This document shows positions 29,110-35,678 of a stretch of DNA of 64,000 nucleotides, one piece after another. The stretch lies in the NCBI GenBank assembly GCA_963734535.1, contig CAVTHS010000007.1, positions 64,001-128,000 of the forward strand, written 5' to 3'. Source of the stretch: an uncultured Chloroflexia bacterium. GTDB taxonomy: Bacteria; Chloroflexota; Limnocylindria; Limnocylindrales; CSP1-4. Under the pieces are notes generated by a model, which did no database searches, had not been told where the DNA came from, and saw only the letters and a list, made by a program, of their open reading frames with translations. The translations under genes were made by a program, and so were the position numbers. Within the stretch, counting starts at the first letter, position 1. Each line of letters starts with the position of its first letter.

Positions 29110-29499
29110 ATGATCGAGCCCACGCTCGGCGCGCCCGAGACGACCGCCGAACCCGTCGTGGTGGATGCCTTGGACGCGGCTGTGGCTGCGGCCGTGGATG
29201 TGGCTGCGGATGCGGCAATTGCCGTCTGCACCCAGGCCCAGCTCCGGCGCTTCATCAAGAGCCGTTCGTACGTGCCCATCCACGAGCTCCGGCGCCGGTT
29301 TGCGCTCCTCGGGGAGGACGACGACGTCACCGGTTTCACCGTCTCGGGTCGACGCGTCTTCGTGGGCCTCCCGGCCCGCGAGGCTCGCATGCTCGGCGAG
29401 CTTGTCTTCCAGGGCGACGTCGGGTACGAGCTCCTCCTCGATCCGACCTCTCCGCTCATCGTCGGCGTCTTCCCCGTCCGGCCGGTCCAGCGCTCCTGA
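29110..29499 (+). CDS. Hypothetical protein, possibly winged-helix-like
   Basis: Coding-like ORF QLRRFIKSRSYVPIHELRRRF... Confidence 0.6.
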   Translation: MIEPTLGAPETTAEPVVVDALDAAVAAAVDVAADAAIAVCTQAQLRRFIKSRSYVPIHELRRRFALLGEDDDVTGFTVSGRRVFVGLPAREARMLGELVFQGDVGYELLLDPTSPLIVGVFPVRPVQRS

Positions 29500-29638
29500 C
29501 GCACGGCAGCCTCCTGGGCTGTCATCGAGACGACACCGCGGCGGTCACAACGACCCTTTACCCGGTTCCCGAGCGGGTGCATCCTGCATGCCACAGGCAG
29601 CGGGCGACGACGCACACCCGGGCCAAGAGGGGACTCGA

Positions 29639-30162
29639 ATGAGCACCAAACGCAAGGCAATCGAGGGCGACGGCTTCATCGCCCGTCGAGCCACCGAGGC
29701 GACGACGTCGAGGGCCACGGCGTCTCGGCGCGCAAGGCTGTCGAGAGCGATGGCGCCATCCTCCGCAAGGCCACCGACGACGACGTCGAGGGCCACGGCG
29801 TCTCGGCGCGCAAGGCTGTCGAGAGCGATGGCGCCATCCTCCGCAAGGCCACCGACGACGACGTCGAGGGCCACGGCGTCTCGGCGCGCAAGGCTGTCGA
29901 GAGCGATGGCGCCATCCTCCGCAAGGCCACCGACGACGACGTCGAGGGCCACGGCGTCTCGGCGCGCAAGGCTGTCGAGAGCGATGGCGCCATCCTCCGC
30001 AAGGCCACCGACGACGACGATGTCGAGGGCCACAACATCGGGGTCATGAACCCGATCCTCGCGCGTGAGCTCTCCCGGGCCCGCGAGCGCGATGTCCAGC
30101 GGGAAGCCTCCCGCAACACGCTCATCGGCGAGGCCAAGCGGGCACTCGGGCGCAAGCGCTGA
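29639..30162 (+). CDS. DDVEGH-repeat peptide (~174 aa; one base missing near 29699)
   Basis: AAGAGGGG RBS, ATG at 29639; restored frame MSTKRKAIEGDGFIARRATEG(DDVEGHGVSARKAVESDGAILRKATD)x4 DDDVEGHNIGVMNPILARELSRARERDVQREASRNTLIGEAKRALGRKR*. Confidence 0.8.
29701..30033 (+). repeat. 78-bp perfect tandem repeat, four copies plus a partial fifth
   Basis: Units start at 29701, 29779, 29857, 29935 and (partial) 30013. Confidence 0.95.
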
Positions 30163-30383: not shown

Positions 30384-31088
30384 GTGACAGGGACCGCACG
30401 GACGACCGCGGGTGATGCGCTCCGAAGCTGTGCGCTGTTCTCGCGCGTCGACGATGCCACGCTCGCGGTCTGCATCGACTCCCTGCGGACCCGCCGCTAC
30501 CGCAGAAACGAGACGATCTTCCACCAGGGCGACCCCGGCGACTCCCTGTACATCATCGAGTCGGGAGCCGTGAAGATCGTCCTGCCGTCGCCGGAGGGTG
30601 AGGACGAGGCGATCATCGCCACCCTGGGCCCGGGCGACTTCTTCGGCGAGCTCGCCCTGCTCGACGGCGCCGAGCGCTCGGCGACCGCGATCGCCCACGA
30701 GGCGACGACGTCCCTCGTGCTCCGCCGCGACGCGTTCGGCCACCTGATCGACACGGTGCCGGCGCTGCGCCACGAGCTCCTGGCGGGCCTCGTCGCCGAG
30801 CTGCGCCGCCTGACGCACCACGTGGAGGAGCTCCACTTCCTGGACCTGCCGGGCCGGCTGGCGCGCCGCATCGTGCGGCTTGCCCGCGATGTCGAGCCCG
30901 ACCCCAGCGGGGCAGTGACGCTCGACTGGAGCTTCTCCCAGTCGGAGCTGGCCGCGATGATCGGCGGAACGAGGCAGACGGTGAACCGGCTCCTCGGGGA
31001 CTTCACGGCGGAGGGCCTGATACGGATCGATCGCGACAGGCTGGTCGTGCCCGACCTGGAGCGCCTCGAGCGGGCGGCTTCGCGCTGA
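30384..31088 (+). CDS. Crp/Fnr family transcriptional regulator
   Basis: IFHQGDPGDSLYII, FFGELALLDGAERSATA cNMP-binding motif, SQSELAAMIGGTRQTVNR HTH. Confidence 0.93.
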   Translation: MTGTARTTAGDALRSCALFSRVDDATLAVCIDSLRTRRYRRNETIFHQGDPGDSLYIIESGAVKIVLPSPEGEDEAIIATLGPGDFFGELALLDGAERSATAIAHEATTSLVLRRDAFGHLIDTVPALRHELLAGLVAELRRLTHHVEELHFLDLPGRLARRIVRLARDVEPDPSGAVTLDWSFSQSELAAMIGGTRQTVNRLLGDFTAEGLIRIDRDRLVVPDLERLERAASR

Positions 31089-31107: not shown

Positions 31108-31935
31108 ATGACCGATCCGGGGGAAGGCGCGCGCCGTCGCGGTCCAGGCTTCGATCGTGACGCGCGTGCCGCGCTCGCCGCAATCGGCCGCCGCGCCGAG
31201 ATTGCGCGGCGTCTCGAGCTCGGGAGCGCCGAGGCGGTTCTCCGCTCGATCGTCGAGGCGGCCGCGGCCCTGTTCGAGGCCGAGGCTGCATCCATCGCCC
31301 TGTACGAGCCGGCGCGCAACGTCCTCGTCTTCCGTGTCGCGGCCGGCGAGCACGGCCAGGGCGTGATCGGGCTCGAGATCCCGCCGGACCGCGGCCTCGT
31401 CGGCTACGTCTTCTCGAGCGGGCAGGCGCTCGCCATCGCCGACGTGCGGGCGGACCCGCGCTTCGGTCGGAGCTTCGCCGAGCAGACCCAGTACGTGCCG
31501 CGCAGCATCGTGGCCGTCCCCCTTCTGGACGAGCGCGGCACGCTCGGCGTCCTCGAGGTGCTCGACAAGCGAAGCGAGACCAGCTTCTCTCTCCGCGACA
31601 TCGAGCTGGCCGGCGTCTTTGCGCGGCAAGCCACCGTCGCGATCCGCGCCAGCCGGGTGGAGCGTGACGCCGCGACGCTCCTTCGCTCGGTGATCGGCGC
31701 GCTGGCTGGCGGGGATGCGCCCGGTGGCGGCGTCGATGCGCTCGTGGCCGCCGCGCTCGTCGACGTCGGCGACCCGGATGACCCCCTGTGGCCCCTCGTC
31801 GAGCAGATCGCCGCCCTTCGCCGGGTCGGGCCCGAGCAGCGCGAGCTGCTGGGCGCCCTGCTCGACGTCCTCGTACGCCAGGCCGAGCGCGGCCGGAGTC
31901 GGCGCGCCGGTCGCCTCCGCGCGCCGGGCGGATGA
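31108..31935 (+). CDS. Stand-alone GAF domain protein
   Basis: AEAASIALY, GLVGYV, DVRADPRF, RSIVAVPL, LGVLEVLDK, FSLRDIELAGVFARQA. Confidence 0.88.
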   Translation: MTDPGEGARRRGPGFDRDARAALAAIGRRAEIARRLELGSAEAVLRSIVEAAAALFEAEAASIALYEPARNVLVFRVAAGEHGQGVIGLEIPPDRGLVGYVFSSGQALAIADVRADPRFGRSFAEQTQYVPRSIVAVPLLDERGTLGVLEVLDKRSETSFSLRDIELAGVFARQATVAIRASRVERDAATLLRSVIGALAGGDAPGGGVDALVAAALVDVGDPDDPLWPLVEQIAALRRVGPEQRELLGALLDVLVRQAERGRSRRAGRLRAPGG

Positions 31936-32762
31936 CCGATCCGCTCCTCCCGGCGTGGAGCGAGCCGTTCAGCGGCGCGCGGCGGGACGCGCTGCGCCAC
32001 CTCCCACCGTTCGGTGCGCTCGATCGCGCCTGGGCGATCGGCGGGAGCGACGGCAGCGGCGTCACCGTCGCGATCATCGACTCGGGGGTGGAGCGAGACC
32101 ATCCGGCTGTCGGCGGGAAGCTGGCCCGCAGCGTCCGGGTCGAGCTGGCCGCGGACCCGGAGGACGACCCCGTGATCCTCGACGACGAGGAAGGCACCGA
32201 CGTGGTGGGGCACGGGACCGCCTGCGCCGGGATCATCCACGCGATCGCGCCGGGCGCGGACCTCGTCTCGGTCCGGGTCCTCGGACCGGACAACCGCGGC
32301 AAGGGGATCGTGTTCGCGGCGGGCCTCGACTGGGCGATCGGCCAGGGCGCCGGCGTGATGAACCTGTCGCTCTCGTCGAAGAGCGATGCGCTGTTCGCGC
32401 TCTTTCACGATCTCGCCGACCGGGCCTACTTCGCGAACGCGCTCCTCGTGTGCGCGGCGAACAACGTGCCCGGGAACAGCTACCCATCCCTCTTCGCGTC
32501 GGTCATCTCCGTCGCGGCGCATGACCTCGCGGACCCGGCCGCGTGGTTCTACAACCCGAGCCCGCCGGTGGAGTTCGGGGCCCACGGGCTGGACGTCAAC
32601 GTCGCCTGGCGCGGCGGGAGCCGCATGATCGCGACGGGCAACAGCTTTGCCGCCCCCCACATCGCCGGGTACGCGGCGCTGATCCGGTCCAAGCACCCGG
32701 AGGCGACCCCGTTCGAGGTGAAGGCGATCCTGGCCGCGACCGCTTCGTCGCCGGCCGGCTGA
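31932..32762 (+). CDS. Minimal cytoplasmic S8 subtilase (no signal peptide)
   Basis: IIDSG, HGTACAG, AANN, GNSFAAPH; ATGA overlap with the GAF gene. Confidence 0.9.
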   Translation: MTDPLLPAWSEPFSGARRDALRHLPPFGALDRAWAIGGSDGSGVTVAIIDSGVERDHPAVGGKLARSVRVELAADPEDDPVILDDEEGTDVVGHGTACAGIIHAIAPGADLVSVRVLGPDNRGKGIVFAAGLDWAIGQGAGVMNLSLSSKSDALFALFHDLADRAYFANALLVCAANNVPGNSYPSLFASVISVAAHDLADPAAWFYNPSPPVEFGAHGLDVNVAWRGGSRMIATGNSFAAPHIAGYAALIRSKHPEATPFEVKAILAATASSPAG

Positions 32763-32767
32763 AGGGG

Positions 32768-32806
32768 GAAGACGGCCGTCCCCGGAGGAGCGGGGCGGCC
32801 GTCTTC
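32768..32806. terminator. Hairpin between convergent genes
   Basis: gaagacggccgtccc...ggggcggccgtcttc inverted repeat. Confidence 0.55.
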
Positions 32807-32871
32807 AGGGTCCGGGCGAGCCGGCGGGTCCAATCGCCGGCGGATTCCCCCGTGTGATTTCGACGGAGCGG

Positions 32872-33465
32872 TCAGGCGGGCGACGCCTCGGTTGCGAGCC
32901 GGCGCGCCCGCGCCGCGAGGGCCGGGTTCCCGTTGCGCTCGAACGCCTCCGCCGCCTGCGTCGCGATCGACGCGGCCTCGCGACCACGTCCGGCCAGCTG
33001 CAGCAGTCGCGCGACGTCCACCAGGGCGTCGGCCGCGAGCACGACCAGGTCAGATTCCTGGGCGAACCGAACCGCCTCGCGGGCGACGCTCCGGGCCCCG
33101 CTCGTGTCGCCGGCGCGCTCCAGGGCTCTGGCTCGCCGGGCGCGCCAGAGCACCTGGACGAACGTGTCGTCCTCCGCGGAGGCGTCGATCGACGCCGCGG
33201 ACGTGGCCCCCGGTCTCGCGGCGGCATCGAGCGCCTGCCCGAGGAAGGGCGACATGAAGCTGTGCCCCTCCACGTCGCCCTCGGTGCCAGCGGCCACGCG
33301 ATCGCGACCGGGGAGTCGCCGTTCGGCCGAGAAGCCGTCGCCGGCTCCGGGAATCTCGGGCATGCCGTGGCCGCTCACGTCGTCGTCGGCGAAGCCGTCG
33401 CCCGGACCCATCCGGCGGCGTGCGTTCACCAGGCCATCCGGCCCGGTCGCATCCCGGTCTCCCAT
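32872..33465 (-). CDS. DVxGH-motif protein fused to a TPR-like helical C-terminal domain
   Basis: AGGGGT RBS before ATG at 33465; DDDVSGH and TEGDVEGH motifs; C-terminal QVLWRARRAR...AREAVRFAQESDLVVLAADALVDVARLL...FERNGNPALAARAR. Confidence 0.75.
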   Translation of the reverse strand: MGDRDATGPDGLVNARRRMGPGDGFADDDVSGHGMPEIPGAGDGFSAERRLPGRDRVAAGTEGDVEGHSFMSPFLGQALDAAARPGATSAASIDASAEDDTFVQVLWRARRARALERAGDTSGARSVAREAVRFAQESDLVVLAADALVDVARLLQLAGRGREAASIATQAAEAFERNGNPALAARARRLATEASPA

Positions 33466-33931
33466 GATCCACCCCTGTCGGTTCGGTCCCCCAGCCGCGA
33501 GTGCGGCCCCCGGCGTCATTGCCCCGGGATCCCTGCATGGTGGCGGGTCGACGCCCGCGCGACAATCCCCGACCCGACAGCCGTCGTGTCGCGAGGGCGA
33601 CATCCGGCCGATGAATCCCGCCCAGCGGCCCGCGGCCTGCCGTCTGCCGGGATTCCCCGTGAAATCCTCGTCAATGGCGACCCTGGGAGCAGTATCCGAC
33701 GTGTGGTCTCGGCAGGACGGCCCAGATCGACGCGGGAGGCCGGACCGGCGCCACGGTCATCGGTATCGCTGCGTGCACGAAGCACACGCGAGGAAATCCA
33801 CGGCCGCAGCCGGCCTGCCCGCCTCCACGTGCCGCCCGGGGTTCGACCTTCCGGGTCAGTGATTGCAGGCGCCGCGTTAGCGAGGAAAGTGGGCCGGCGG
33901 CGCAACGCGCGGCGCCCGCCACGGCGTCCCC

Positions 33932-35678
33932 TCAGCCTGCCGCGCCCGGCGCCCCGCGGCGGAGGTCCAGCAGCCGCGGCGCCAGGCCGGGTCCCGCGTT
34001 GACCAGCTCAAGGAAGCTGGCCCCGTCGAGCGCGAGCAGCGTGCCGTCCGTCGTCGCCGTCACGGTCGCGGTCCTGGCCGTCGAGCGGAGCAGGCCGATC
34101 TCGCCGAACACCTCTCCGCTGGCCATCGAGCGGAGCCGGGCGGGCGGTGCGTCCGCGGGATCGCCCGGCTCGCGGCGTGTCACCCTGAACGTGCCGGCCT
34201 CGATGACGTAGAACCGATCCGCGGGATCGCCCTGCCGGATCACGACGTCGCCCGCGCGGGCCGACACCGGGACCAGCCGCGTCGCCACGGCCTCCAGCGT
34301 CGGCACCGGCACGCCGGAGAAGATCGTCAGCCGCGCCAGGCTCGCGAAGCGGGTCGCGGCGATGCTCTCCGGGGCGCGGCGGGCCGCGGGCGCAGCAAGT
34401 ACCGCCCCGATCAGCCCCGCGACGGCGACCGCAGCGCCGGTCGCCGCGAGGACCGTCCCGATCCCGAGGGCGTTCGCAAGCACCGGCAACGCGAACGAAC
34501 CGGCGGCGAACGCGAGCGTGGATGCAGTTGCCAGGACGCCCAGCGTCCGTCCGCGGATCTCGTCGGGGATGGCGCGCTGGAGGATCGTGGTGCTGGTGAC
34601 CTCCACGAGCAGCGCCCCGGCCGAGGCCACGGCGATCGTGCCGACCGCCAGCGGCATCGAGCCCGAGATCCCGAGGGCGGCGAGGCCCGCGGCGAGCACG
34701 AGCGATCCGCCCGCGAGGACGCCGACAAGGCTCGGCCGCAGGACGAAGACCCCGGCGAGGAGCGCGCCCACCAGCCCGCCGACACCGATCCCGGCGTTCA
34801 GGAAGCCGGTCCCCGCGTCGCCCGCTCCCAGGGACGACACGGCGATGACGACGGTCAGCACGCCAAGGCCACCGCCCGCGACGCTCCCGACGAGGTCGAT
34901 CAGGGCGAGGCCGAGCACGGGGACCACCACCGTACGACGGCGCTCGCGGCCTGTCAGGGTCGTCACCGGCGTCGCGGCCGTGGCCTGCGCGGGGGCCGTC
35001 GCGGGGGTCGCGGCGACATCGCCGTGCCCGACCGGGGTCCCGCCCGCAGCGGAGACGTTCCGGCTCTCGCCGGTCGCGGAGCGCCGCGGCGACGGAAGCC
35101 GCCACAGGACCGCGGCGATGACGGCGAACGTGACCGCGTTGAGGATGAACGCCAGGACCAGCCCGCCGGCGGCGATCAGGAGCCCCCCGATCGCCGGCCC
35201 GATCACGAAGGCAAGGTTGTCGAGCGTGGACCAGGCGCTGTTCGCGGGGCCGAGCTGCTCCTCGTTCGCGACGAGGGAGGGAAGGTATGCGCCGATCGCG
35301 GGCCCGAAGAACGTCGAGAAGCAGGTCGCGACGACGGCGAGGCCGACGATCGTGACGATCGGCGCGTTCGTGGCGACAAGGGCCGCCATGACCAGCATGA
35401 GCAGCCCGCGCGCGACATCGGTGACCAGGAGGATGAGCCGGCGATCGTACCGGTCCGCGATGATGCCCGCCGGGATCGACAGCGACCACGTAGGGCAGGA
35501 CGCGCGCCGCGCCCACGATCCCGAGGACCAGCGGGTCGTTCGAGACCTCGTAGACGAGGATCAGGATCGCCACGAGGTAGAGCCAGTCGCCGATCGACGA
35601 GACGAACTCCCCGGCGAGGAGCCGCGCCAGCGGGCGGTTCCCGAGCAGGAGGCGATAGGCCCGCAGGACCGCGATCAT
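33932..35678 (-). CDS. MFS transporter with C-terminal cyclic-nucleotide-binding domain (frameshift near 35487)
   Basis: GEFVSSIGDWLY, ADRYDRR MFS motif, many TM helices; VIRQGDPADRFYVI...FGEIGLLRSTARTATV. Confidence 0.88.

What the first reader, a model, noticed from the sequence alone, without database searches (positions are those of the whole stretch)
32872..33465. DVEGH peptide module fused to an orphan TPR-like cap
Seen: the N-terminal half is homologous to the repeat peptide. Compare GDGF...DDDVSGH, GDGF...TEGDVEGH-SFMSPFLGQALDAAAR with EGDGF...TEGDDVEGH and DVEGH-NIGVMNPILARELSRAR; the MxPxLxxxL..AR tail is shared. The C-terminal ~100 aa (QVLWR...AREAV...D...ADAL.D.A..L..AGR..EA...FERNGN) resembles, from my recollection, the terminal TPR segment of large cyclase/AAA(STAND)-TPR proteins. 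Inference: a ligand-receptor fusion suggesting DVEGH peptides bind these TPR caps, or a decoy or inhibitor released by the neighbouring protease.
Basis: partly seen in the sequence, partly recalled or inferred. Interest (0 to 1): 0.75.

Follow-up and report, generated by a model that had tools for sequence, protein, structure and literature searches.

The report
Repeat-peptide gene that captured a TPR tip
A small gene of an uncultured soil bacterium joins a disordered peptide carrying the motif Asp-Val-Glu-Gly-His to the last three helical repeats of a large cyclic-nucleotide-making sensor protein, which hints that such peptides and such sensors work together.

Summary
The 197-aa ORF (32872-33465, minus strand) is a real gene under purifying selection, not an assembly chimera. 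Residues 1-69 are a disordered module with two GDGF...DDV(S/E)GH units. It is homologous to the neighbouring tandem-repeat "DVEGH" peptide.

Residues ~75-192 are a 118-aa cassette. It is homologous to the extreme C-terminal TPR end of Zn-ribbon/cyclase (or SARP)-AAA_16-TPR "STAND" giants, and AlphaFold folds it confidently as TPR-like helices.

The gene is the second DVEGH gene of a conserved Ca. Limnocylindria cluster: M24 peptidase, small ORF, DVEGH1, Crp, GAF, leaderless S8 protease, DVEGH2, MFS-cNMP exporter.

- **Long form is rare.** Most relatives carry a short DVEGH2 without the cap. Long and short alleles differ by one clean indel and co-occur in one permafrost metagenome.
- **Cap-bearing cyclase giants neighbour the cluster.** This holds in 11 of 79 other loci. 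In 5 of 5 genomes checked, that neighbour is the only strong cap-type giant.
- **The cap is an orphan here.** All three long-form genomes lack such a giant.

The fusion plus the neighbourhood link DVEGH peptides to these TPR tips. Binding itself is not shown. The claimed shared "MxPxL..AR" tail is a chance composite.

The parts
32872..33465 (-). DVEGH2-long gene, 197 aa plus stop (stop at 32872-32874)
   Evidence: ORF. 12 full-length homologues at 80-94% identity. dN/dS over the whole gene is 0.11-0.21 in 6 pairs.
33259..33465 (-). Disordered N-terminal DVEGH module, residues 1-69. It has two GDGF...DDV(S/E)GH units, with DVSGH at 33367-33381 and DVEGH at 33262-33276.
   Evidence: pLDDT 38-45. 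Homology to DVEGH1 at z 3.8-11.6. No TPR signal: -2.9 bits against the giants' HMM, where 300 shuffles reach up to 7.4.
32890..33243 (-). Captured cassette, residues 75-192: the C-terminal TPR end-piece of a STAND cyclase/SARP giant
   Evidence: Clean indel against the short allele L026, with ~97% identical flanks. Contigs of run X2 join 32890->33259 and 32894->33256. 109.5 bits against the giants' HMM.
32884..33177 (-). Confidently folded TPR-like helices, residues 97-194 (H93-117, 121-137, 141-157, 161-177, 181-194)
   Evidence: AF2 pLDDT 88-95. VIA-align Z 13-16.6 to TPR domains. dN/dS 0.09-0.17.
32875..32889 (-). Ancestral C-terminal tail 'EASPA', shared with short forms
   Evidence: Short forms P0013, P0014 and P0016 end in the same motif. 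The DNA is identical to L026 from here on.
32768..32806 (.). Perfect 11-bp inverted repeat between the convergent S8 and DVEGH2 genes (terminator-like hairpin without a T-run)
   Evidence: Read from the sequence and conserved in L003 and L026. The consensus scan did not call it.
31932..32762 (+). Leaderless S8 (subtilisin-family) peptidase. Its ATG overlaps the GAF gene's stop.
   Evidence: Pfam Peptidase_S8 at 1.6e-31. The mycosin, QhpE and PatA models all score below their cut-offs. Conserved in 520 tblastn relatives.
31108..31935 (+). GAF-domain protein
   Evidence: Pfam GAF at 1.5e-20.
30384..31088 (+). Crp-family regulator (cNMP-binding domain plus HTH)
   Evidence: Pfam cNMP_binding at 2.9e-27 and HTH_Crp_2 at 2e-17.
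29639..30162 (+). DVEGH1 tandem-repeat peptide gene. It has 78-nt units x4.3 and a conserved basic C-terminal tail. In the window the frame breaks near 29697-29700.
   Evidence: TRF, frames, in-frame homologues. A contig of run X1 carries one extra base behind 29699.
29110..29499 (+). Conserved small ORF of unknown family
   Evidence: No Pfam or NCBIfam hit. Present in most of the 80 loci. Alignment A4.
33932..35678 (-). MFS transporter fused to a cNMP-binding domain. In the window it is split over two frames near 35466-35494.
   Evidence: Pfam MFS_1, MFS_3 and cNMP_binding. tblastn with the intact L003 protein gives two frames.

Best explanation
SHOWN. The ORF is the second 'DVEGH' peptide gene (DVEGH2) of a conserved Ca. 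Limnocylindria cluster. In one small lineage, a 118-residue cassette was inserted in frame between the last DVEGH motif and the old C-terminal tail. The cassette is copied from the very end of a Zn-ribbon-cyclase/SARP-AAA_16(STAND)-TPR protein and holds its last three TPR-like hairpins. The capture happened once. The cassette then diverged fast and has since been held under strong purifying selection. It still segregates against the cap-less allele among close relatives.

INFERRED (mechanism).
1. The disordered N-terminal 70 residues are a substrate-like module. The neighbouring cytoplasmic, GAF-coupled S8 protease cuts it at or beside the DVEGH motif. That cut would create acidic ...DDVEGH C-termini and would free the TPR module.
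2. The TPR end-piece is the peptide-binding tip of the cyclase sensors that other genomes encode next to this same cluster.
3. This lineage has no such cyclase. Here the tip survives as a tethered, stand-alone receptor that holds or captures DVEGH-ended peptides. In that way it would buffer or time the peptide signal of a cluster wired to cyclic nucleotides through Crp, GAF and MFS-cNMP.

I put the anatomy and evolutionary history at about 0.9. The binding mechanism is much less certain. The figure given is for the whole statement.
For: REAL AND SELECTED.
- 12 full-length homologues; also present in L003, L004 and L030.
- dN/dS of the cap is 0.09-0.17, of the N-module 0.10-0.23 and of the linker 0.18-1.06, across 6 pairs.
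- RNA-library contigs at 94-95% identity cover 32656-33501.

CASSETTE.
- Long and short alleles have ~97% identical flanks and differ by one indel.
- Two contigs of run X2 skip 361-368 nt exactly there, while another X2 contig carries the cap.
- In the S8 tree, short-form loci L026 and L005 nest among the three long-form loci (supports 99/92, 97/89 and 98/90).

ORIGIN.
- HMM of 45 giants' ends scores 109.5 bits.
- 23 of 28 positions that are >=80% conserved in giants are kept.
- The long-form caps form one clade (100/100) on a stem of 1.29 changes per site.

LINK TO THE DVEGH SYSTEM.
- 11 of 79 other S8 loci have a cap-bearing giant adjacent, in two different arrangements.
- 9 of the 13 giant ORFs carry Guanylate_cyc + AAA_16 + TPR.
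- In 5 of 5 such genomes the neighbour is the single strong match.
- All three cNMP-sensor genes are in the cluster.

CONSISTENT WITH CUTTING AFTER HIS.
- Everything after the last DVEGH varies freely: 5-aa tails, 20-27-aa tails, or the 125-aa cap.
- One DVEGH2 (L111) ends exactly at ...DVEGH.

FOLD. TPR, like peptide-binding TPR domains.
Against: - No cleavage and no binding has been shown by anything here.
- The AF2 monomer gives no confident docked pose for residues 1-95 (pLDDT ~40).
- Caps of this type are common without DVEGH. 0 of 55 Actinomycetota loci with the closest caps have a DVEGH ORF, S8 or GAF within 6 kb. DVEGH therefore cannot be their general ligand.
- The cap is dispensable. 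Most relatives, including one whose S8 is 99.3% identical, carry short alleles.
- Two positions that giants conserve strongly are changed in all four long forms: K178N (K in 45 of 45 giants) and A116E. The ancestral specificity may therefore be lost.
- The closest sampled cap is only 48% identical, and cluster-adjacent giants are 34-39% identical. The donor is unknown.
- The giant-adjacent loci fall into few clades, so they count as few independent events.
Confidence: 0.35

Rival explanations
1. The cap has been re-used for another job in the same cluster and does not bind DVEGH peptides. It could be a docking or oligomerisation handle that brings DVEGH2 to the S8/GAF pair, Crp or the MFS-cNMP exporter. 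It could instead be a folded plug that changes how fast the disordered module is degraded.
For: - The cap sits on a long stem branch (1.29 changes per site). It also carries fixed non-conservative changes at giant-conserved positions (K178N, A116E), which fits a new function.
- Purifying selection is strong.
- No cap-type giant exists in 3 of 3 long-form genomes.
- No docked DVEGH pose appears in the AF2 monomer.
Against: - 23 of 28 giant-conserved positions are kept, which suggests the old interaction surface is largely preserved.
- This reading does not explain why giants with this end-piece sit beside the cluster elsewhere.
Confidence: 0.25
2. Released decoy. The S8 protease frees the TPR end-piece. 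The free piece then acts as a dominant-negative competitor or inhibitor of STAND cyclase/SARP giants, either by mimicking their tip or by capping their TPR arrays.
For: - The cap is homologous to the giants' tip.
- It sits right after a probable cleavage motif.
- The genome has 6 cyclase-domain ORFs, several in frames of 950-1400 aa that also carry TPRs.
Against: - None of the own genome's giants has this end-piece.
- 3 of 3 long-form genomes lack a cap-type giant, so the like-for-like target is missing. G000 is 89.9% complete, so one could still be unassembled.
Confidence: 0.12
3. DVEGH proteins are not protease substrates. They would instead be acidic, His-bearing, disordered metal-binding or stress proteins, and the cap would be an unrelated add-on.
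For: - The motif holds Asp, Glu and His.
- A CopA-type P-type ATPase lies near the cluster in the window and in several relatives.
- The repeats are hydrophilic and disordered.
Against: - The peptide genes keep their place on both sides of Crp-GAF-S8 across the class: 77 of 80 loci have a DVEGH-type ORF.
- The ATPase is further away and not always present.
- This reading does not explain the adjacent cyclases.
Confidence: 0.1
4. Assembly chimera, or a decaying pseudogene fragment of a giant.
For: The window carries two single-base frame breaks in neighbouring genes: DVEGH1 and MFS-cNMP.
Against: - The same fusion occurs in independent assemblies: L003, L004, L030, 12 protein clusters, and Logan contigs of 4 runs.
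- The frame is intact and dN/dS is ~0.1.
Confidence: 0.02

Closest known systems
Zn-ribbon / class III cyclase (or SARP) - AAA_16 STAND NTPase - TPR proteins. Mycobacterial Rv0386, Rv0890c and Rv2488c are named as cyclase/ATPase/TPR LuxR proteins in bioRxiv 10.1101/2024.03.06.583649 (passages read).
   Same: Residues 75-192 are homologous to their extreme C-terminal TPR end-piece (109.5 bits). 23 of 28 conserved positions are kept. Such proteins neighbour the same cluster in 11 of 79 loci.
   Different: The target has no cyclase, no NTPase and no further TPRs. It is a 118-aa fragment fused to a disordered peptide. It is at most 48% identical to any sampled cap. The giants' invariant Lys is replaced (K178N).
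RRNPP peptide-receptor pairs of Bacillota (Rap-Phr, NprR-NprX, PlcR-PapR). My recollection: Phr pro-peptides are matured by subtilisin-family proteases.
   Same: The ingredients match: a TPR module, a small pro-peptide and an S8 protease. PlcR, RapH, NprR and a phage Rap appear among the structural matches at Z 12-13.3.
   Different: No HTH or phosphatase effector is joined to the TPR. I saw no signal peptide and the protease is leaderless, so everything looks cytoplasmic. Peptide and TPR are one polypeptide. A Z of 12-13 is ordinary for helical repeats.
TPR 'carboxylate clamp' domains that bind acidic C-terminal EEVD peptides (Hop/Sti1, PP5, Tah1, FKBP38). The mechanism is recalled from my own knowledge.
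   Same: These are three-TPR modules of ~115 aa. Hop TPR1, Tah1, Sti1 TPR2B, FKBP38 and Sgt2 peptide complexes are among the fold matches at Z 11.7-13.5. An acidic ...DDVEGH end would resemble ...EEVD.
   Different: I did not test for clamp residues. No sequence similarity was found. That a free DVEGH C-terminus exists is inference, apart from L111, which ends there.
Cyanobactin precursors with several cores (PatE) cut by S8 proteases (PatA/PatG)
   Same: A repeat precursor with an invariant flank motif and variable spacers sits next to an S8 protease.
   Different: The S8 scores 25.6 bits against a cut-off of 421 for the PatA/PatG model. No heterocyclase or macrocyclase genes are present. The cluster instead has Crp, GAF and MFS-cNMP.
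MalT sensor domain (domain III, 1hz4)
   Same: It is the TPR-like sensor arm of a STAND regulator. It matches the cap at Z 13.4, rmsd 3.3, 103 aligned residues. The precomputed Pfam lists put TPR_MalT (PF17874) on P0021 and P0022; no protein carries it. In the scan the giants of L099, L111 and L109 also hit TPR_MalT, at 32.6-36.6 bits, below its cut-off of 45.
   Different: The ligand there is maltotriose, not a peptide. The target has only the tip of such an arm.

Membership tests
Cyclase-AAA_16(STAND)-TPR signalling proteins | Class III cyclase catalytic domain (PF00211) | tested here: not met
   Pfam scan of the 243-aa ORF finds only a weak TPR_14 hit. The protein is 197 aa.
Cyclase-AAA_16(STAND)-TPR signalling proteins | STAND P-loop NTPase (AAA_16 / AAA_22) | tested here: not met
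   No hit.
Cyclase-AAA_16(STAND)-TPR signalling proteins | Conserved C-terminal TPR end-piece (DD..Q..WR..RA ... E.KGN..A.RAR) | tested here: met
   109.5 bits against the HMM of 45 giants' ends. 23 of 28 conserved positions are kept, but K178N. Matches map to the last ~10-17 residues of the giants.
TPR / TPR-like helical repeat fold | Three or more antiparallel helix pairs forming a right-handed superhelix | tested here: met
   AF2 gives five confident helices in 93-194 plus a weak helix at 73-83. VIA-align Z 13-16.6 to LGN, Pins, FLU, MalT and others. Foldseek found no match at E<=1e-3.
TPR / TPR-like helical repeat fold | Pfam TPR model above its gathering score | tested here: not met
   TPR_14 scores 17.5 bits against a cut-off of 23.5.
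DVEGH-motif peptide genes of the Crp-GAF-S8 cluster (not in print as far as I searched; known only from this scan) | Invariant D-V-(E/S)-G-H after an acidic run, in repeated units with a G-D/E-G-F part | tested here: met
   Two units are invariant in 13 sequences. Similarity to DVEGH1 is z 3.8-11.6.
DVEGH-motif peptide genes of the Crp-GAF-S8 cluster (not in print as far as I searched; known only from this scan) | Position: convergent with, and directly downstream of, Crp-GAF-S8, before MFS-cNMP | tested here: met
   Window map. The same order is seen in the loci.
RRNPP peptide-receptor systems | TPR receptor joined to an HTH or phosphatase output domain | tested here: not met
   There is no further domain.
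RRNPP peptide-receptor systems | Secreted pro-peptide with a signal sequence, re-imported after processing | not tested
   I ran no signal-peptide predictor. By eye the N-terminus is charged and the S8 has no leader.
Cyanobactin PatE/PatA-type maturation | PatA/PatG-family protease above the model cut-off | tested here: not met
   TIGR03895 scores 25.6 bits against a cut-off of 421.

The most novel reading that the evidence does not exclude
Peptides ending in ...DDVEGH, cut from the repeat proteins by the GAF-gated cytoplasmic S8 protease, are the natural ligands of the terminal three-TPR module of cyclase-STAND-TPR sensors. This would give a peptide -> cAMP -> Crp/GAF/MFS circuit. On this reading the window's protein is a natural 'Rosetta stone': ligand and receptor tip in one chain, kept as a self-contained pro-form in a lineage that lost the cyclase.
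Probability: 0.2. Interest if true: 0.85.

Novelty: new variant of a known kind. Interest (0 to 1): 0.62.

Why it matters
Cyclase-STAND-TPR and SARP-STAND-TPR proteins are abundant in soil Actinomycetota and Chloroflexota. This one end-piece alone has 2695 representative hits. From my own knowledge, what their TPR arms sense is generally unknown.

A natural in-frame fusion of their tip to a motif-bearing peptide nominates a concrete candidate ligand and a minimal 118-aa receptor fragment. The nomination is strengthened by the same kind of cyclase sitting beside the same peptide/protease cluster in other genomes. Both the ligand and the fragment can be made and tested in vitro.

The locus also shows a clean, still-segregating case of domain capture into the variable tail of a small protein.

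I found no description of the DVEGH cluster or of this fusion in the searchable literature.

Tried and rejected
(1) COMPLEX PREDICTION. I ran complex prediction with the cap (A1 residues 96-197) against the N-module (A1 residues 1-75). The verdict was 'no answer', score 0.00 in two runs, and the controls were not run. This is neither for nor against binding.

(2) IS THE DVEGH MODULE A DEGENERATE TPR UNIT? BLAST and HMMER alignments to giants often start at residue 40-41, which raised this idea. I rejected it for these reasons:
- Residues 1-69 score -2.9 bits and residues 1-96 score 2.6 bits against the giants' HMM, while 300 shuffles reach 7.4.
- Short-form modules score z ~0.
- The z 2-3 for residues 28-69 rests on hand-picked best hits and on the window-specific 'SAERRL'.

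(3) SEARCHES THAT FOUND NOTHING USEFUL.
- 'Longer' proteins carrying the N-module: none among 424 candidates (weak evidence).
- Foldseek against PDB: 0 matches at E<=1e-3.
- PDB sequence search: only designed repeat proteins.
- Promoter/terminator consensus scan of 32600-33950: 0 sites.
- Earlier findings of this scan, by place and by sequence: nothing.

(4) DONOR OF THE CASSETTE. It stays unresolved: the cap tree is a polytomy. The closest representative, P0038 (48% identical), has relatives in Gaiellaceae and other Actinomycetota.

(5) RNA RUN X20. It has next to no cover over GAF and S8. These are contigs, so this is not evidence of low expression.

(6) SMALL ORF. The Atlas lists only 'hypothetical' Chloroflexota clusters.

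(7) PAPER SEARCHES. 'DVEGH' anywhere gave 11 unrelated papers. Subtilisin/GAF/repeat/precursor/cNMP terms gave 0. Limnocylindria plus subtilisin gave 0. Cyclase/STAND/TPR/AAA_16/peptide terms gave 163 papers, of which 12 were listed and none was on this system. I opened no supplements.
Full report
WHAT IS THERE. The window is high-GC (0.69-0.75). Titles of related loci place it in Ca. Limnocylindria, phylum Chloroflexota. The finding's ORF (32872-33465, minus strand, 197 aa) is intact. The longest ORF reaches 33603. The ATG at 33465 follows an AGGGG(TGG) stretch. All 12 full-length database homologues are 192-199 aa long and align from residue 1. An RNA-library contig ends in adapter sequence at 33501, 36 nt upstream of that ATG. 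That is only a hint of a 5' end.

ITS SURROUNDINGS. The neighbours, in order, are:
- an M24 peptidase;
- a conserved small ORF;
- a tandem-repeat peptide gene, DVEGH1, with 78-nt units x4.3 at 98% matches;
- Crp;
- a GAF protein;
- a leaderless S8 peptidase whose ATG overlaps the GAF stop;
- the target, which is convergent;
- an MFS transporter fused to a cNMP-binding domain.

A scan of the whole genome for D[VT]EGH found 10 hits. Only the six in these two genes lie in plausible genes.

THE TWO HALVES.
- Residues 1-69 carry two units, [basic]-GDGF-...-DDV(S/E)GH. AF2 leaves them disordered at pLDDT 38-45. They are significantly similar to DVEGH1 proteins of 8 loci (z 3.8-11.6; 0/2000 shuffles in 6 of 8).
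- Residues ~97-194 fold as five helices at pLDDT 88-95, with a TPR-type fold. VIA-align gives Z 13-16.6 to TSK, LGN, Pins, DdvA, FLU and MalT domain III. PlcR and RapH score 12.7-13.3. The tool notes that such values are ordinary for helical repeats. Foldseek found nothing at E<=1e-3.
- By sequence, the C-terminal part matches the extreme C-termini of large proteins. 7 of 7 'longer' hits are annotated cyclase, ATPase, SARP or TPR. 2695 representatives reach E<=1e-3, mostly aligned to query positions 40/70/90-195 at the ends of proteins of up to ~1300 aa.
- An HMM of the last 230 residues of 45 such giants scores residues 70-197 at 109.5 bits. It scores residues 1-69 at -2.9 bits, and 300 shuffles reach at most 7.4. 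The N-module is therefore not TPR-derived, and short-form relatives show z ~0.

A CLEAN CASSETTE THAT IS STILL POLYMORPHIC.
- Most relatives encode a short DVEGH2. It has the same N-module followed by 5 or 20-27 residues, often ending '...EASPA' like the long form.
- I aligned the DNA of the window and L003 (both long) with L026 (short). The flanks are ~97% identical. A ~354-nt stretch (residues 75-192) stands in place of ~60 nt.
- The left border falls after 'SFMSPF', where the short allele has 'SLVSRF'.
- In the permafrost run X2, two contigs join 32890->33259 and 32894->33256, while another contig carries the cap. Both alleles therefore occur in one sample.
- The S8 of short-form L026 is 99.3% identical to the window's. 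Long-form L003 is 98.5% and L004 92.7%. In the S8 tree, L026 and L005 nest among the three long-form loci with supports 99/92, 97/89 and 98/90. My pattern labelled L005 'none' there, but one search shows it is a short form.
- The short tails are homologous to one another, so the pattern needs allele exchange rather than simple deletion.
- None of the 4 same-genus genomes with a DVEGH2 match has the cap, out of 7 same-genus genomes searched. Only 1 of the 80 S8-anchored loci has it, and that locus is the L003 contig.

SELECTION AND ORIGIN.
- Across 6 pairs of 4 long forms, dN/dS is 0.09-0.17 for the cap, 0.10-0.23 for the N-module and 0.18-1.06 for the linker at 70-96.
- The three long-form caps form one clade (100/100) on a long stem of 1.29 changes per site, inside an unresolved polytomy. 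This fits one capture, then fast change, then conservation.
- 23 of 28 positions that are >=80% conserved in giants are kept. K178N (Lys in 45 of 45 giants) and A116E are fixed in all four long forms.
- The best sampled cap is 48% identical (P0038). Its relatives are in Gaiellaceae and other Actinomycetota.

LINK TO STAND CYCLASES.
- I anchored on the S8 gene and fetched 80 loci totalling 1.35 Mb, the best 80 of 520 relatives. 77 of them hold a DVEGH-type ORF.
- 12 of the 80 hold a match to the end-piece HMM. One is the long form itself. The other 11 are giants directly beside the cluster.
- The arrangements are: seven divergent from Crp or GAF, in the place where DVEGH1 usually sits (L099, L101, L106, L107, L108, L111, L112); one downstream (L109); three co-directional just upstream of DVEGH1 (L048, L050, L054).
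- Of the 13 giant ORFs or pieces scanned, 9 have Guanylate_cyc + AAA_16 + TPR, mostly with an N-terminal Zn-ribbon. The rest are split or partial.
- In 5 of 5 such genomes (2.6-3.8 Mb), the neighbour is the only strong match to a giant's end. Two of these genomes have a second match, at E ~1e-4.
- These loci fall into few clades, so they are few independent events.

THE REVERSE PATTERN, AND A LIMIT ON THE LINK.
- In all 3 long-form genomes (G000 and the genomes of L003 and L004), the only match is DVEGH2-long itself.
- The own genome has 6 cyclase-domain ORFs, but none has this end-piece.
- The link is not general. 0 of 55 Actinomycetota loci with the closest caps have a DVEGH ORF, S8 or GAF within 6 kb, and 2 have a Crp-like gene.
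- In the class sample, 86 of 201 genomes match the query, mostly at the ends of frames of 1000-1400 aa. That tally includes four genomes flagged unpublished: G087, G112, G123 and G159.

HOW IT PROBABLY WORKS (INFERENCE).
- Everything after the last DVEGH varies freely, and one DVEGH2 (L111) ends exactly at ...DVEGH. This fits cutting right after the motif by the adjacent S8, which would free the TPR module.
- A three-TPR module of ~118 aa is the size of classical peptide-binding TPR domains. An acidic ...DDVEGH end recalls the EEVD ligands of Hop-type TPRs (recalled, not tested).
- The fusion, taken as 'Rosetta stone' logic, together with the neighbourhood evidence, makes the peptide-to-tip interaction the best single hypothesis.
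- No tool result shows binding. The AF2 monomer gives no docked pose.

RIVALS. These are a re-purposed handle within the cluster, a released decoy, and a metal-binding reading of the repeats. They are weighed in the fields above.

EARLIER NOTES OF THIS SCAN. Notes e1-1499901, e1-1258302 and e1-1248157 describe the same cluster in other genomes. I used them as leads and re-derived the neighbourhood from my own loci.

NOVELTY. Four literature searches found no description of the motif, the cluster or the fusion. In one preprint, bioRxiv 10.1101/2024.03.06.583649, I read passages that only list mycobacterial cyclase-ATPase-TPR LuxR proteins.

VERDICT.

Noticed in passing
window 29639-30162 (+), break near 29697-29700: The ATG-led start of DVEGH1 (MSTKRKAIEGDGF...ATE) is in a different frame from the DDVEGH repeats. 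One base seems to be missing in a G-run. Close relatives are in frame (L003). A contig of run X1 has A>G at 29697 and one base put in behind 29699, which restores the frame. This is probably an assembly error or a strain variant.
   Followed up: partly
window 33932-35678 (-), break near 35466-35494: The MFS-cNMP gene is split over two frames. tblastn with the intact 585-aa L003 protein places its residues 1-71 in frame -3 and residues 62-578 in frame -1. This is a second single-base frame break in the same cluster.
   Followed up: partly
window 29690-30033; loci: DVEGH1 repeat number and spacer sequence change freely between relatives: 1 to 14 motifs and units of 13-26 aa. Both '(A/R)TEDDVEGH' and the basic C-terminal tail (...ARERDVQREASRN...) stay fixed. 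The four units in the window are 98% identical at the DNA level.
   Followed up: partly
window 29110-29499 (+): A conserved small ORF always precedes DVEGH1. Its invariant core is CT..QLRRF.KSR.Y.P.HELRRRFA...VGLP.RE...GDVG.EL..DP..P.I.GV.P.RPV.R. It has no Pfam or NCBIfam family. The Atlas lists only 'hypothetical' Chloroflexota clusters.
   Followed up: partly
L111:10878-11099 (-); also L012, L032, L035 and L036: One DVEGH2 ends exactly at ...DVEGH. Several others end five residues later (...DVEGHSSAKD). This fits a functional C-terminus at the His.
   Followed up: no
window 33501 and 29601: Contigs of the RNA library X20 end in Illumina adapter at 33501 (36 nt upstream of the DVEGH2 ATG) and at 29601 (38 nt upstream of the DVEGH1 ATG). 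These are possible transcript 5' ends. They come from contigs only.
   Followed up: no
window 32768-32806: A perfect 11-bp inverted repeat (GAAGACGGCCG ... CGGCCGTCTTC) lies between the convergent S8 and DVEGH2 genes. It is conserved in L003 and L026.
   Followed up: no
L143:2900-3595 and L144:2892-3695 (-): In two Solirubrobacteraceae loci, a Crp-like gene (35% identity) lies upstream of, and divergent from, a cap-type giant. No S8, GAF or DVEGH gene is in view.
   Followed up: no
L048:7450-8210 and L050:7458-8224 (+): In loci where a giant lies upstream, the DVEGH1 region reads as two consecutive ORFs. The second carries the conserved tail. This could be two genes or a frame break.
   Followed up: no
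L099, L101, L106, L107 and L111: the gene next to the giant's 3' end: A 349-399-aa ORF of unknown function sits tail-to-tail with the cluster-adjacent giants. Of the three scanned with Pfam, L111 has a DUF11 hit, and L107 and L099 have none at E<=1e-5.
   Followed up: no
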